A DNA stretch of 64,000 bases from Myxococcota bacterium. GTDB lineage: Bacteria; Myxococcota_A; UBA9160; JAFDDA01. Position 1 is the stretch's first letter; every line of letters begins with the position of its first letter. Below, in pieces: positions 29,701 to 35,700 of this stretch. The position numbers were made by a program. The DNA lies in the NCBI GenBank assembly GCA_965228475.1, contig OZ245817.1, positions 1,248,001-1,312,000 of the forward strand, given 5' to 3'.

Positions 29701-32700
29701 CTGGTCCGATGGCACGACGGCCTGGCCGAGCGCGGAGGCGGCCGGGAGGCCGAGCAGCGCCAGCAGCAGGAGGAGACGGATGCCCTGGACCTTCATGCCG
29801 GAATCCTACCCTCTCCACGGGCACGCCCCACGGCCGGAGGCATCGCGACCGGCAGCTTCCGCGCGCGCGCGCGGCAAGGCCGCGGCACGGCGTGTGCGGT
29901 CCGTGAGCCGGGGCAACGAAGGTGGGGGTGGGGTACGTGGATCCCCGGGAAGGATTCGAACCTTCACAAGCAGAGTCAGAGTCTGCTGTCCTGCCATTAG
30001 ACGACCGGGGATCACCGGGCCCGCGGCCGAGAGGCCGCTCGCCAGAAGGTAGGAGTAGCCGAGCCCCGCTTGGGCCTCAACTCCCGCTTGGGCCTCAACT
30101 CCGCCGTGCGATCTCCGCGAGGGCCTCGCCGAGCCGTGCGACCGCGCGCTCCTGGCCGAGCACGGCGGCGGTCTCGTAGATCGGCGGGGAGGCGGCCGAG
30201 CCGGTGAGGGCCACGCGCACGGGCTGGGCGAGCTTGCCGAGCTTGAGCCCGTCGCTCGCGGCCAGGGTCTCGGCGAAGGCGGCCTCGATGGCGGCTTCGT
30301 CCCAGGTGGGGAGCGCAGCGAGGCGCCCCTTCAGGTCCGTGAGCGGCGCCTCCGCCGCGGCCTTCAGATGCTTGGCGGCGGCCTTCTCCTCGAAGGCGAT
30401 GGCGTCGGACAGGAGCCAGCGCGTTTGCACGGCCATCTGCGAGAGGTCGTCGCTGCGTTCGCGCAGCAGGTCGAGCAGCTTCTCGAGCTCGGGCGTCCGC
30501 TCGACCGGCCCTCCGGCGACCGCCTCGAGCTGCGGTGCCAGGTGCGGCCAGAGTTCGTCGAGCGGCAGCGTTTTGATCCAATGCTGGTTGCTCGCCACGA
30601 GCTTCGCGAGATCGCATTGGGCGTTGCTCTTGTGGACCTCCGGCAGGTCGAACAGCCGGACGAGGTCTTCGCGCGTGAAGACCTCCTGGTCGCCGTGGCT
30701 CCAGCCGAGCCGCGCGAGCCAGGAGAGCATGGCTTCGGGCAGCACGCCCTCGTCGCGGAAGTGCTGGATGGCGACGGGGTCGCGCCGCTTGCTGAGCTTC
30801 TTGCCCCCCGCCCCGACGAGCAGCGGCACGTGGGCGAACACGGGCGGCTCCGCCCCGAGCGCGCGGTAGAGCGCGATCTGGAGCGAGGTGTTGTTCAGGT
30901 GGTCCGCGCCGCGGATCACGTGGGTGATGCCCATCTCGATGTCGTCGACCACGACGGCGACGTGGTAGAGCGCGCCCCCGTCGCTTCGGCGGATGATCCG
31001 GTCGCCGATCTCGCGCGCGTCCTGTCCGCTCGCGCCGAAGACGGCGTCCTCGAAGCCGAGCATCCCGCTCTCGGGCACGCGGATGCGCACCGTGTGTTCG
31101 CCGCAGTCGGGGCCGTGGTTCGCGTCGCGGCAGCGCCCGTCGTAGGTCCACTTCTCGCCGCGCGCGATGGTGGCCTCCTTGCGCGCCTCGAGGTCTTCCT
31201 TGCTGCAGGTGCAGCGGTAGGCCGAGCCTTCCGCGAGCATCCGTTCGATGGCGGCGGCGTAGAGCGCCGCGCGCTCGCTCTGGCGGAAGACCCCCTCGTC
31301 CCAGTCGATGCCGAGCCAGCGCAGGCCGTCGAGGACGGCCCGCTCGCTCTCCTCGGTCGAGCGCTCGCGGTCCGTGTCCTCCGAGCGCAGGACGAGCACG
31401 CCCCCGTGGCGGCGGGCGTAGGCCCAGTTGAACAGGGCCGTGCGGGCGCTTCCCAGGTGGAGGAAGCCCGTCGGGCTCGGGGCGAATCGGGTGCGGACGG
31501 TCGTCATGGGCGCCGGATCTTAGCGGCCGCTGGCGGCCCGGCCCGGCCTCTGCGAGACTCCGGCGCCCGAAGTCACCGTATCGAAAGACCTTTTCAGGAT
31601 GAAGCTGCTCACCGACCGGATCACGGAAGAGCCCTCGGCCCATCGTTTCGAGCCGGATCCCGCCTGGTGGGAGGAGGCCGGCGCGCTCCTTCCGGAGCTC
31701 GCCTCGGCGGATCGGGGGGCTTTCTCCCTCCAGTTCGACGCCCACCGGATGGCCGAGGCCCTCTATCTGGAGGGCCGGGCCGAGGGCCGCGTGGAGCTCG
31801 AGTGCAGCCGCTGCCTTAAACGCTATTTTCTGCCGCTCCGCGAGGACTTCCGGCTGGTCCTGGAGCCCGCGGAGCAGCGCACACCGGCCGACCCCGAAGC
31901 CGCCGAAGCCCTGGCCCGCGATGGCCTGGCGCTCTCGGAGGATCTCGACACCGGCTGGTTCCGCGGCCTCGAAGTGGAGTTCGGCCCCTACTACAGAGAG
32001 GTCATCGCGCTCGGGTTGCCGGTGCAGCCGCTGTGTCGGGAAGAGTGTCGCGGGCTGTGCCCGCGCTGTGGAAATGATCGCAACCGCCAGGCGTGTGGTT
32101 GCGAAGAGACGAAACCGGATTCGCCGTTCGCCGCTCTCGCCGCCCTGCGCGGGGAGCCCGACGGCCGCAAGCAAGGAGACTCCTGATGGCCGTGCCCAAG
32201 CGGCGGACTTCCCGCAGCCGGCGTGACAAGCGCCGTTCCCACCACGCGCTGGCCCAGCCTGCCCGTTCCGATTGCCCCCAGTGCAACGAGCCGCGTCTGC
32301 CCCACCGCGTGTGCGGCAACTGCGGCTTCTACCGGGACAAGGTCGTCGTCGAGACCGACGACGAGATCTAGCGCTTGCTGGCCCTGCTCTTTCCGGGCCA
32401 GGGGTCCCAGAGCGTCGGCATGGGGCGCGACGTCCACGAGGCGTCGCCCGCCGCCCGCGCCGTGTTCGAGGCCGCCGACGACGCCCTCGGCTACTCGCTC
32501 TCGAAGCTGTGCTTCGAGGGTCCCGACGATGCGCTGGTCCCGACGGAGGTCCAGCAGCCCGCGATCCTGACCGTGAGCATCGCCCTGCTGCGCGCGCTCG
32601 AGGAGCAGGCACCGGTTCGCGCGGCGTACGTCGCGGGCCACAGCCTCGGGGAGTACAGCGCGCTCGTGGCCGCGGGGGCCGTGGACTTCGAAGACGCCGT

Positions 32701-35700
32701 CCGTCTCGTGGCGGCGCGCGGCCGCTTCATGCAGGAGACCGTGGCGGCCGGCGAAGGGGCCATGGCGGCGGTCCTGAAGAGCACGCCCGAGGCCGTGGCC
32801 GAGGCCTGCGCTGCCGAGTGCAGCGCCAGCGGGCGGGTGGTCGCACCGGCCAACTTCAACGCTCCGGCCCAGACGGTGATCGCCGGCCACACGGATGCCG
32901 TCGAGGGCGCCTCGGAGCGGCTCGGCGCCGCCGGCGCCCGGGTGAAGCGCCTGGCCGTCTCGGCCCCGTTCCACTGCGAACTCATGGCGCCGGCCGCGGA
33001 GAAGCTGGCCGCGGAGCTCGCGACCGTCTCCTGGCGGGATCCGGCCGTGCCCGTCGTCAGCAACGTCGAGGCCGAGCCCAATGCCCGGGCCGCCGCGATC
33101 CCGGAACTCCTGCGGCGCCAGGTGACGGCGCCGGTGCGCTTCGTCGAGAGCGTCGCCCGGCTGGCGGGCCTCGGCGCGACCCATGCCCTGGAGGTCGGGC
33201 CGGGCCGGGTGCTCTCGGCCCTGGTGGCCCGAATCGAGAAGGGGCTCGAACGTCAGAACCTGGGGAAGGCCGAAGATCTGGCCCCGGCGCTCGCCTTCGT
33301 GAGCGCAGCCCAGGATTAGGGCACAATACGCGAGAGGGTGGAGGAACCATGTCGCTGGAAGATCGCGTGACGGAAATCATCATGGAGCAGCTGGGGGTCT
33401 CGCGAGAGCAGATCCGCCCGGAGGCTTCGTTCATCGACGACCTCGGTGCGGATTCGCTCGACATCGTCGAACTCGTGATGGCCATGGAGGAAGAGTTCGA
33501 CATCGAGATCCCGGACGAGGAAGCCGAGAAGATCCAGACCATCCGGGATGCCACCGGCTACCTCCAGAGCCAAGTCGATGTCTAGCGGCTACTCCCCCGA
33601 AGCTTCGCGCAGTCACGCCCTGGCCGAGGCGGACCCGGACGTCGCCCGGCTGATCCGGGAGGAGGCGCGCCGGCAGGCGCTCTCCATCGAGCTGATCGCC
33701 TCGGAGAACTTCGTCTCCGACGCCGTGCTCGAGGCGGCCGGCACCGTGCTCACCAACAAGTACGCCGAGGGCTACCCCGGCCGGCGCTACTACGGCGGCT
33801 GCCACGTCGTCGACGAGATCGAGGACCTCGCCCGCGAGCGGGCCAAGGCGCTGTTCGGCGTCGACCACGTGAACGTGCAGCCCCACGCCGGTTCCCAGGC
33901 CAACGAAGCGGTCTACCGTGCGGTGCTCGACGTCGGCGACACCATCCTCGCCATGAACCTCGACCACGGCGGCCACCTGACCCACGGCAGCCCCGTGAAC
34001 TTCTCGGGCAAGCTCTACAACGTCGTGGCCTACGGCGTGCGCAAGGCGGACGAGCGCATCGATCTCGAGGAGGTGCGCCAGCTCGCGAAGGAGCACCGTC
34101 CGAAGCTCATCCAGTGCGGCTACACCGCCTACTCGCGTCAGGTCGACTTCGAGGGCTTCCGCGAGATCGCCGACGAGGTCGGGGCGGTGCTCTTCGCCGA
34201 CATCGCCCACATCGCGGGCCTCGTCGCGGCGGGCGTGCACCCGAGCCCGGCGGGCAAGGCGCACATCTTCACGACGACCACGCACAAGACCCTGCGCGGC
34301 CCCCGCGGCGGCATGATCCTGTGCGACAAGGAATGGGCGAAGAAGGTCGATTCCGCCGTCTTCCCGGGAGGGCAGGGCGGCCCGCTCATGCACGTGATCG
34401 CCGCCAAGGCCGTGGCGCTGCTCGAGGCGCAGCAGCCCTCCTTCAAGGCGTACTGCGAGCAGATCCTCGCCAACGCCCGCACCCTGGCCGAGGCCCTCGA
34501 CTCGGCCGGCGACTTCAAGATCGTCTCGGGCGGGACGGACACGCACCTGTTCCTGCTCTCGCTGGTCGAGCGCGACGTGACGGGCAAGGCCGCCGAGCTC
34601 TCGCTCGAGCGCGCCGGCATCACGGCCAACAAGAACATGGTGCCCTTCGATCCGCAGACGCCCTTCGTCACGTCGGGCCTGCGGCTCGGGACGCCCGCCG
34701 TCACGACGCGGGGGATGAAGGAGCCCGAGATGCGCGAGATCGCCGGCTTCATCGCCCGCGGCCTCGAGAACCACGGGGACGTCGAAGCCCTCGACGCGAT
34801 CCGGCAGGAGGTGGAGAAGCTCTGCCGCCGCTTCCCGCTCTATCCGGGTCGCTGGGACGACGACGCCGCCTGAACCGCCGACGACCCGGGCGTCGCGGGT
34901 GAACGGGGGCGTCGGCCGCCGTCGACCCGGGCGCCCACGCTGGAGCCTGCGTGCGCTGCCCGTACTGCGCCATGGAAGACAATCGCGTGATCGATTCGCG
35001 ATTGGGCCGCGACGGCGAGGAGATTCGCCGCCGGCGCGAGTGCCTGGAGTGCCAGCGGCGCTTCACCACCCGCGAGCGCGTCGAGTACGTCCTGCCGAAG
35101 ATCGTGAAGCGCGACGAGCGGCGCGAAGAGTACTCCCGGGCCAAGCTCCTGAGCAGTCTCCAGAAGGCCTGCGCGAAGACCTCCGTCTCCGTCGACGCCA
35201 TCGACCACATCGCCGAGCGCGTGGAGCTCTCGCTCCAGGACAGCGGTGAGAGCGAGCTCTCGAGCCGCCGCGTCGGGGAGCGCGTGATGGAGGAGCTGCT
35301 CTCCCTCGATGCCATGGCGGCGGTGCGCTTCGCCTCCGTCTTCGAGCGCTTCGAGAGCCGCGACGACTACGAGGCGTTCTTCTCCCGCTTCGCGACCCTG
35401 CGCCGCGGGAAGTAGCGATGGCCGGCCGTCGCTCGAAACCGCGGAGCGGCAAGGGCCGCGGCTCGAGCTCCGCGAAGCGCCGCGCGCCGAAGCCGGGCGC
35501 CGCCGACGAACGCTTCATGGGCCAGGCCGTCGCCGCGGCGCGCCGCATGCTCGGGCGCACCCCGCCGAATCCGACCGTCGGGGCCGTCGTCGTCCGCGGT
35601 GGCGAAGTGCTGGCGCGGGGAGCGACCCGCCCGGCCGGCGGCGCCCACGCCGAGATCGTCGCGCTCACCCGGGCGCTCGCACGCCACGGCCCGAAGGCCC

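What a model noticed while it worked through the whole genome (the two positions that open the first line are those of the whole stretch)
32375..34873. Closed genome lacks fatty-acid elongation (no FabF/FabB, no FabZ/FabA) but keeps FabD-AcpP-FabH-FabG and lipid A synthes [...]
fabF is deleted so cleanly that acpP overlaps glyA, and there is no FabB, FabZ, FabA, PlsX or PlsY anywhere in this 5-Mb free-living diderm. FabD, AcpP, FabH, FabG, two PlsB and LpxA/C/D/B/K remain. The simplest reading is a fatty-acid auxotroph that builds phospholipids from scavenged acyl-CoA and uses one FabH/FabG round to make 3-hydroxyacyl-ACP for lipid A.
Evidence so far: Only ketosynthase is the PKS g01893; PF07977 and PF02504 give no match; contig ends overlap. 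FabF over cut-off in 55 of 61 order genomes but 0 of 3 in this family; acpP-glyA adjacent in all three family genomes, acpP-fabF-glyA in G032. The second fab cluster that sits after murJ-oxoprolinase in the same-genus G062 is absent here. Rich beta-oxidation and sterol catabolism.
(Added by a program. Inside this text positions count along the whole contig: contig position 1,248,001 is position 1 of the stretch shown here. "Call 12" and the like, gene names such as g00115 and contig names such as C1 are that model's own, and its searches are not shown. The text may have been shortened before it was handed on; [...] marks where a part breaks off. The agent that wrote the report below was given it as the finding of a first reader that could run no searches.)

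Follow-up and report, generated by a model that had tools for sequence, protein, structure and literature searches.

The report
Bacterium missing fatty-acid chain elongation
This uncultured bacterium with a normal-sized, closed genome has lost the known enzymes that lengthen fatty acids, so it probably scavenges its membrane fats and keeps only the few steps needed to make the hydroxy-fatty acids of its outer membrane, a loss that recurs in several related lineages.

Summary
Confirmed. fabD-acpP runs straight into glyA (8-nt overlap; bridged without differences in three runs). The closed 5.0-Mb genome has no FabF/FabB, FabA/FabZ, PlsX or PlsY. FabD, AcpP, FabH, FabG, two PlsB and LpxA/C/D/I/B/K/KdtA are intact.

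New here: in the relatives inspected, the only complete FAS II is a second cluster beside dinG. It is ancestral and eroded repeatedly (complete, then FabG plus carboxylase, then FabG only, then nothing in this genome). 17 of 68 high-quality genomes lack a housekeeping dehydratase. The parts kept are those that stop at 3-hydroxyacyl-ACP.

FabH chain-length preference is unresolved.

Precedent: Bradymonadia were reported to lack FabB/F. The scan had described the second cluster in other genomes, but not this loss.

The parts
30095..31507 (-). gltX, glutamate-tRNA ligase (conserved left flank)
   Evidence: TIGR00464 487 bits, cut-off 290
31599..32186 (+). yceD (DUF177)
   Evidence: PF02620 92 bits
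32186..32371 (+). rpmF (L32); followed directly by fabD, with no plsX or fabH (order-wide state)
   Evidence: TIGR01031; rpmF>fabD>acpP in 22 of 22 relatives covering the stretch
32375..33319 (+). fabD, malonyl-CoA:ACP transacylase, intact
   Evidence: TIGR00128 323 bits, cut-off 261; Q9, S90, R115, H200 and Q249 align to the E. coli residues; dN/dS 0.23 against G001
33349..33585 (+). acpP, acyl carrier protein (78 aa, DSL motif Ser36)
   Evidence: TIGR00517 110 bits, cut-off 70; dN/dS 0.17
33578..33585 (+). deletion junction: acpP stop overlaps glyA start by 8 nt where most relatives carry fabF and often an rpiB domain fused to glyA
   Evidence: bridged by contigs of X1, X2 and X3 with 0 differences
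33578..34873 (+). glyA, serine hydroxymethyltransferase (rpiB lies elsewhere, contig 4,357,092-4,357,529)
   Evidence: NF000586 620 bits; rpiB location
34951..35415 (+). nrdR
   Evidence: TIGR00244
35517..37602 (+). ribD-ribH-nusB (conserved right flank; the ribD start may lie further upstream)
   Evidence: TIGR00326, TIGR00114, TIGR01951 all over cut-off
60180..61763 (+). lnt, apolipoprotein N-acyltransferase; the bamA-skp-lpxA-lpxI-lpxB-kdtA-lpxK cluster, without fabZ or lpxD, follows just beyond the window (contig 1,315,366-1,325,682)
   Evidence: TIGR00546

Best explanation
The organism cannot build long fatty acids from acetyl-CoA and takes them from its food. Scavenged acids are activated to acyl-CoA, trimmed by beta-oxidation, and put into phospholipids by PlsB/PlsC-type acyltransferases. 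What is left of FAS II is half a turn. A biotin carboxylase with a PccB-type partner gives malonyl-CoA and FabD loads it on AcpP. FabH condenses it once with a medium- or long-chain acyl-CoA, and FabG reduces the product to (R)-3-hydroxyacyl-ACP. LpxA and LpxD use that to make a lipid A that probably carries four acyl chains (no LpxL). Lipoate can come from octanoyl-CoA through LipB. Shown: the gene inventory, the junction, the erosion series and selection on the kept genes. Inferred: every substrate assignment, FabH primer length, the malonyl-CoA source, activation of AcpP by the single Sfp-type PPTase, and the growth dependence itself.
For: No elongating KS or FabA/Z in a closed genome. The kept genes are intact and under purifying selection: dN/dS 0.17-0.30 against 0.15 for glyA and nrdR. 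At the ancestral pal-ALS-dinG site, 10 of 22 fetched loci hold the full or near-full second cluster, 2 keep FabG plus carboxylase (one also the reductase), 10 (one family) keep FabG only, and G000 keeps nothing. Dehydratase and reductase were lost together while FabG stayed in at least two lineages. LpxA/C/D/I/B/K/KdtA are present; LpxL is absent in G000 and G002 but present in 3 of 3 other genomes tested. One PlsB passes the cut-off of the PRK03355 model (that such actinobacterial enzymes use acyl-CoA is recalled). In-genome homolog counts: about 50-55 acyl-CoA dehydrogenases, 45 enoyl-CoA hydratases, 36 AMP-forming ligases, 22 thiolase-fold proteins besides FabH. Precedents (passages read): KAS III shunts from beta-oxidation, PA3286 and RsFabW (PMC4549310); LipB accepts octanoyl-CoA (10.1101/2022.01.03.474776); Bradymonadia lack FabB/F and were proposed to scavenge (PMC7460792).
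Against: FabH keeps Phe91 (E. coli F87) and scores 142 against a cut-off of 304 on PRK07515, which I recall as the PA3286-like family. Its closest folds are ordinary short-chain FabH (Z 49-50, against 45-46 for the mycobacterial long-chain enzyme), although G306 is Ser, L142 is His and the beta8-alpha9 loop is longer. A FabI-like protein with Tyr/Lys intact, 3-4 FabK-like flavoproteins and R-hydratases close to Rv0130 and a mycobacterial MaoC protein could finish cycles. No FadL was found in G000, G001 or G002; five large DUF1302-type barrels are only candidate importers. No AccA/AccD and no AcpS-type enzyme were found. FabH orthologs are kept in 92 of 101 genomes, including all 7 without LpxD, so FabH is not kept for lipid A alone. 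LipB is kept in 30 of 40 dehydratase-less genomes against 50 of 61 others (my hand count). The genome looks otherwise prototrophic for the 8 markers checked, unlike Bradymonadia.
Confidence: 0.55

Rival explanations
1. Mitochondrion-like remnant: bulk lipids are scavenged, but FabH, FabG, a MaoC-type dehydratase and the FabI-like reductase run a few full turns to C8-C10 acyl-ACP for lipoate, biotin precursor and lipid A primers.
For: A FabI-like protein with YxxxxxxK is present in both elongase-less family members G000 and G002 and not found in G001, which has the second cluster. LipA and LipB are present without LplA, and BioB/F/D/A without a clear BioC. RsFabW elongates short acyl-ACPs to C10 (PMC4549310 passages). 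Rv0130-like (E 3e-53) and 3khp-like (E 3e-78) hydratases exist.
Against: The FabI-like protein is found in only 12 of 101 genomes (7 of 40 dehydratase-less ones) and lies far below FabI cut-offs. The hydratases sit alone or among catabolic genes. LipB does not need octanoyl-ACP.
Confidence: 0.15
2. The cell still makes its bulk fatty acids de novo by an unrecognised route: either an iterative FabH as the sole condensing enzyme, or an ACP-independent thiolase/DUF35/MaoC/SDR/enoyl-CoA reductase pathway like that of Sulfolobus.
For: Losing the only complete FAS in 17 of 68 good genomes of 5 families is easier if a back-up exists. Three Cys-motif thiolases lie beside DUF35 genes; 13 MaoC, 62 SDR and 13 MDR hits were counted. 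FabK-like proteins occur in 97 of 101 genomes. The archaeal precedent is 10.1101/2024.07.05.601840 (abstract and passages). No FadL was found.
Against: These genes lie in clusters with acyl-CoA dehydrogenases, hydratases and CoA transferases typical of steroid and fatty-acid breakdown (family labels partly recalled). The HMG-CoA-synthase-like domain lacks its catalytic Cys (by eye). No FabK match passes the cut-off in 101 genomes. I know no KAS III that makes C16 chains alone (recalled).
Confidence: 0.17
3. The second fab cluster is present in the cell but on a plasmid or other replicon that was not binned, or was dropped in assembly.
For: The cluster can move: it sits at a different site in G001 and G023, and the G023 copy groups with another family. 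Only one contig is held.
Against: The chromosome is circular, with clean flanks at both known cluster sites. The stepwise remnants in other genomes show true chromosomal loss. G002 also has no match, though it is only 81% complete.
Confidence: 0.07
4. The single type I PKS (contig 2,096,485-2,102,916) supplies acyl chains.
For: It has KS, AT, KR and DH domains plus a carrier domain, and the only PPTase gene lies next to it.
Against: It has no enoyl reductase domain (only 24-45-residue Rossmann matches). It is coupled to an upstream NRPS with a luciferase-like domain, among glycosyltransferase-type genes, so it reads as one module of a polysaccharide-decorating line.
Confidence: 0.04

Closest known systems
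Bradymonadia (Bradymonas and relatives, Myxococcota), reported incomplete FAS II (PMC7460792; passages read)
   Same: Large-genome, free-living Myxococcota lacking FabB/F, proposed to take fatty acids from outside.
   Different: They were reported to lack FabI/L and to carry many fadL copies and many other auxotrophies. Here FabA/Z are missing too, a FabI-like gene is present, no FadL was found and biosynthetic markers remain. The passages I read do not describe a kept half-cycle for lipid A or a stepwise erosion.
Beta-oxidation shunt KAS III: Pseudomonas PA3286 and Ralstonia FabW (PMC4549310; passages read)
   Same: Proposed chemistry: acyl-CoA from beta-oxidation plus malonyl-ACP gives 3-oxoacyl-ACP that feeds LPS.
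   Different: There the shunt supplements a complete FAS II; here it would be the only condensation. This FabH belongs to the general PRK09352/TIGR00747 subfamily and fails the PRK07515 cut-off.
Canonical type II FAS (E. coli plsX-fabH-fabD-fabG-acpP-fabF, fabZ, fabA, fabB, fabI, accABCD, acpS)
   Same: FabD, AcpP, FabH and FabG pass their family cut-offs; the yceD-rpmF and glyA-nrdR-ribD flanks are kept.
   Different: No KAS I/II, FabA/Z, AccA/AccD, AcpS, PlsX or PlsY; the enoyl reductase is only a divergent candidate.
Archaeal ACP-independent fatty acid synthase of Sulfolobus acidocaldarius (10.1101/2024.07.05.601840; abstract and passages)
   Same: Thiolase beside DUF35, MaoC hydratases, SDRs and MDR proteins are all present as families.
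   Different: No such set is clustered with an MDR reductase; the contexts look catabolic; no activity was tested.
Host-associated fatty-acid auxotrophs such as urinary-tract Lactobacillus (10.64898/2026.04.23.720460; search listing and start of abstract only)
   Same: Dependence on outside fatty acids.
   Different: Those are monoderms tied to a host. This organism keeps an outer membrane with lipid A and a 5-Mb genome.

Membership tests
Complete type II fatty acid synthase | Elongating ketosynthase (FabF/FabB) | tested here: not met
   only the PKS KS domain
Complete type II fatty acid synthase | FabA/FabZ dehydratase | tested here: not met
   LpxC is a single-domain 302-aa protein, not an LpxC-FabZ fusion
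Complete type II fatty acid synthase | FabD, AcpP, KAS III, FabG | tested here: met
   all over NCBIfam cut-offs; catalytic residues kept
Complete type II fatty acid synthase | Enoyl-ACP reductase | tested here: inconclusive
   FabI-like protein at 114 bits, far below cut-offs, Tyr181/Lys188 kept; FabK-like at 251 bits against 453; FabV not searched
Complete type II fatty acid synthase | Acetyl-CoA carboxylase and ACP-activating PPTase | tested here: inconclusive
   AccC-like over cut-off, a 71-aa biotin carrier and 5 PccB-type transferases, no AccA/AccD; one Sfp/EntD-type PPTase only
Raetz lipid A pathway | LpxA, LpxC, LpxD, LpxI, LpxB, LpxK, KdtA | tested here: met
   (LpxI and KdtA by Pfam cut-offs)
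Raetz lipid A pathway | Late acyltransferase LpxL/LpxM family (PF03279) | tested here: not met
   0 matches in G000 and G002, present in G012, G016, G040; a PlsC-like gene two genes downstream of lpxD could substitute
PA3286/FabW shunt KAS III | Sequence family (PRK07515; its link to PA3286 is recalled) | tested here: not met
   142 bits against cut-off 304
PA3286/FabW shunt KAS III | Uses medium- or long-chain acyl-CoA primers | tested here: inconclusive
   F87 kept; G306 is Ser, L142 is His, longer loop; model pLDDT 95, fold matches nearly tied across FabH, PqsD and BioZ; determinants from PMC12625853 passages
Bradymonadia-type fatty-acid scavenger | Lacks FabB/F | tested here: met
Bradymonadia-type fatty-acid scavenger | Many fadL importers | tested here: not met
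   PF03349: 0 matches in G000
Bradymonadia-type fatty-acid scavenger | Growth or membrane synthesis depends on outside fatty acids | not testable with these tools
   needs culture or isotope labelling
Archaeal ACP-independent FAS | Active thiolase with DUF35, R-hydratase, ketoreductase and enoyl-CoA reductase acting as one anabolic set | tested here: inconclusive
   all families present, 3 Cys-motif thiolases beside DUF35, but contexts look catabolic

The most novel reading that the evidence does not exclude
This lineage makes its membrane fatty acids de novo without any KAS I/II or FabA/Z, using its conserved FabH as an iterating synthase (or a thiolase/DUF35 complex) with MaoC-type dehydratases and a divergent FabI- or FabK-like reductase. 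That would be an undescribed bacterial route to fatty acids, and would explain why the order can lose its only standard synthase again and again.
Probability: 0.17. Interest if true: 0.85.

Novelty: new variant of a known kind. Interest (0 to 1): 0.5.

Why it matters
Fatty-acid synthesis is treated as a housekeeping function, and bacteria with lipid A are expected to need it for 3-hydroxyacyl-ACP. A closed genome showing how a diderm can drop elongation yet keep a minimal lipid A supply gives a natural test of which FAS II steps an outer membrane really needs. It predicts a concrete culture supplement (fatty acids or lipids) for an uncultured group. It also corrects the reading of the order's 'second' fab cluster, which looks like its main synthase. 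If the hidden-route rival holds, it is new biochemistry.

Tried and rejected
Assembly artefact at the junction: rejected.
ELO-type elongases: none (the family passes its cut-off in none of the 14 prokaryote controls, so the control is weak).
Type III PKS, OleA or active HMG-CoA synthase as hidden condensing enzyme: no full-length match besides FabH.
Aryl-polyene-like third cluster: common in relatives, no KS for it in G000.
LipB as proof of a full cycle: set aside because LipB accepts octanoyl-CoA.
FabH as BioZ, suggested by a nearby acyl-CoA dehydrogenase that I read as glutaryl-CoA type (recalled; below cut-off): not supported, fold scores do not separate it.
'Regained in the genus-mate': unresolved; low support for its position.
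Calls that gave nothing: and one search used a wrong reading frame, so one search gave no dinG survey (only incidental positions); one search timed out and was rerun on a smaller sequence pool; my window did not contain plsY.
No RNA holder was listed. The ESM Atlas only returned generic KAS III clusters. PMC6167442 passages added nothing.
Literature searches that found no description of this loss in this order; one search found the Bradymonadia precedent. Subscription papers are not covered, and supplements (Table S2 of PMC7460792; pathway tables of 10.64898/2026.07.10.737566) were not seen and may list FAS completeness.

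
Full report
Observation. The window is G000:C1:1,248,001-1,312,000 of a 5,006,157-bp single contig, 96% complete. The ends share 19 nt exactly and GC skew has two arms; by eye an ORF reads across the join. The locus is gltX, yceD, rpmF, fabD (32375-33319), acpP (33349-33585), glyA (33578-34873), nrdR, ribD, ribH, nusB. acpP and glyA overlap by 8 nt, as in the genus-mate G001. Contigs of three runs from two studies cross the junction with no differences; one may be the source sample.

What is missing. PF00109 gives one full ketosynthase, in a PKS. PF07977, PF02504, PF02660 and PF01151 give nothing. 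HMMs built from relatives' FabA, FabZ-like, KS II and KAS III proteins, run over 44,993 six-frame segments, found no dehydratase (best E 0.21), no KS II outside the PKS and one KAS III. The PKS follows an NRPS among glycosyltransferase-type genes and has no enoyl reductase domain. AccA/AccD, AcpS, LplA, LpxL and FadL were also not found.

What is kept. FabD, AcpP, FabH, FabG, an AccC-like carboxylase, LipA, LipB, LpxA and LpxD pass NCBIfam cut-offs; so do LpxC, LpxB and LpxK, and LpxI and KdtA pass Pfam cut-offs. Two PlsB proteins, several PlsC-like proteins and CdsA are present. Catalytic residues are intact. dN/dS against G001 is 0.17 (acpP), 0.23 (fabD) and 0.30 (fabG), against 0.15 for glyA and nrdR (a simple counting method on high-GC genes). 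There are also 3-4 FabK-like flavoproteins below cut-off and 11 MaoC matches, two of them close to mycobacterial R-hydratases. The only PPTase sits beside the PKS.

The order. The closest FabH relatives in named records are Myxococcota and Deltaproteobacteria MAGs; the label UBA9160/Myxococcota_A comes from recall and earlier scan notes. In 101 genomes of the order, FabF passes cut-off in 80 and in 0 of 3 of this family. At the fab locus, plsX, fabH and fabG are absent in 22 of 22 relatives, and fabF follows acpP in 20 of 24. fabZ is absent between skp and lpxA in 8 of 8 loci, G000 included. 28 of the 30 best FabA/Z matches belong to a second cluster: reductase, KAS III, FabA, FabG, FabZ-like, KS, ACP, acyltransferase, PPTase and a single-chain carboxylase. 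G004 has one canonical-looking FabZ. Earlier scan notes called this cluster an auxiliary synthase; in the genomes I inspected it is the only complete set.

Erosion series. Of 22 fetched loci that contain dinG, 10 hold the full or near-full cluster (four families), G003 holds reductase, FabG and carboxylase, G086 holds FabG and carboxylase, and 10 genomes of family f7 hold FabG alone. These loci were chosen because they had a match to a cluster gene, so the proportions are not a sample. G000 has nothing at this site or at the site used by G001. A tree of four cluster proteins mostly follows families, which fits inheritance; G001 is on its own weakly placed branch and G023 groups with another family. 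So 'regained' is unproven for the genus-mate. Counting only strong FabA/Z matches (8 weak ones, E above 1e-9, set aside), 40 of 101 genomes and 17 of 68 high-quality genomes in 5 families lack a housekeeping dehydratase. Some of them carry an aryl-polyene-like cluster with its own dehydratases; G000 does not. PlsX is in 21 of those 40 and 4 of the other 61, beside gmhB, and PlsY was absent in both PlsX carriers tested. Kin are not independent, so no statistics are claimed.

Mechanism. The genes that survive are those needed to reach 3-hydroxyacyl-ACP and no further: carboxylase, FabD, AcpP, one condensing enzyme, FabG. I infer that bulk lipids are built from scavenged acyl-CoA and that one FabH/FabG turn feeds LpxA and LpxD. 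The missing LpxL fits, since it needs saturated acyl-ACP (recalled). LipB does not force a full cycle, because the E. coli enzyme accepts octanoyl-CoA (10.1101/2022.01.03.474776, passages). KAS III shunts from beta-oxidation are known (PMC4549310, passages). The weak link is FabH specificity. Phe91 matches E. coli F87, while Ser325, His146 and a longer loop differ at positions that PMC12625853 links to primer choice (passages). The AlphaFold model (pLDDT 95) matches ordinary FabH best, with PqsD and BioZ nearly tied. LpxD has Gly and LpxA Ala at the recalled chain-length positions, a weak hint of longer and shorter chains respectively.

Against it. No FadL was found; five DUF1302-type barrels are only candidates. 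FabH is kept in 92 of 101 genomes, including all 7 without LpxD. Candidate dehydratases and reductases exist, and RsFabW shows that a KAS III can iterate to C10. An archaeal ACP-independent route uses families that G000 has (10.1101/2024.07.05.601840, abstract and passages), though here in catabolic-looking clusters. A missed replicon was not tested.

Comparison and verdict. Bradymonadia were already reported to lack FabB/F and FabI/L and to scavenge fatty acids (PMC7460792, passages; PMC11509652, passages), so the phenomenon has a precedent in Myxococcota. Two papers on the class UBA9160 note beta-oxidation but, in the passages read, not this loss (PMC11685487; 10.64898/2026.07.10.737566). 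Searches found no account of the stepwise erosion or the kept half-cycle; supplements were not seen. I rate it a new variant of a known kind, interest 0.5. Scavenging of bulk fatty acids has about 0.7 in total (0.55 one turn, 0.15 short full cycles) and a hidden de novo route about 0.17.

Noticed in passing
L039-L056, L161 (relatives' fab loci): rpiB is fused to, or lies directly before, glyA in most relatives; G000 has a stand-alone rpiB at contig 4,357,092-4,357,529.
   Followed up: partly
L143-L152 (e.g. G008:C1:71,080-72,051): PlsX lies beside gmhB, mostly in genomes without the second cluster, and PlsY was absent in both carriers tested. It may load outside acyl groups onto ACP.
   Followed up: partly
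L195:7397-8146 (contig 1,319,396-1,320,148): LpxA has Met where E. coli and five relatives have Gln73, a residue I recall as near the 3-hydroxyl group; acyl preference may differ.
   Followed up: no
G009, G031, G055, G060, G069, G075, G085: No LpxD match in 7 of 101 genomes, all at least 90% complete and all with the second cluster: possible loss of lipid A in two families.
   Followed up: no
L006:16958-17614 (contig 2,102,957-2,103,616): The genome's only PPTase lies in the NRPS-PKS cluster; no AcpS and no pdxJ match were found.
   Followed up: partly
L179, L425, L210-L238: fabH sits in a conserved run of a GTPase I read as hflX, fabH, a 135-aa protein with no Pfam match and an acyl-CoA dehydrogenase.
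   Followed up: partly
L125 (G023:C100): G023 carries the full second cluster away from dinG, grouping with family f12, while its genus-mates G008 and G053 keep only FabG at dinG: a likely regain.
   Followed up: partly
L180:6099-10513 (contig 2,944,098-2,948,515): A carboxyltransferase paired with an unusual 915-aa split biotin-carboxylase/biotin-carrier protein; substrate unknown; a candidate malonyl-CoA source.
   Followed up: no
L379-L385, L394-L397: An aryl-polyene-like type II cluster with two ACPs and hot-dog dehydratases is common in the order and absent from G000.
   Followed up: partly
L185:2304-3035 (contig 1,580,300-1,581,034): Phosphatidylcholine-synthase-like gene (below cut-offs); E. 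coli ClsA and PssA queries found nothing.
   Followed up: no
window 17700-22529 and 38357-53610: Two pilin-like genes with an ABC exporter and prepilin peptidase, and a chemosensory cluster, read from the translations only; they look ordinary.
   Followed up: no
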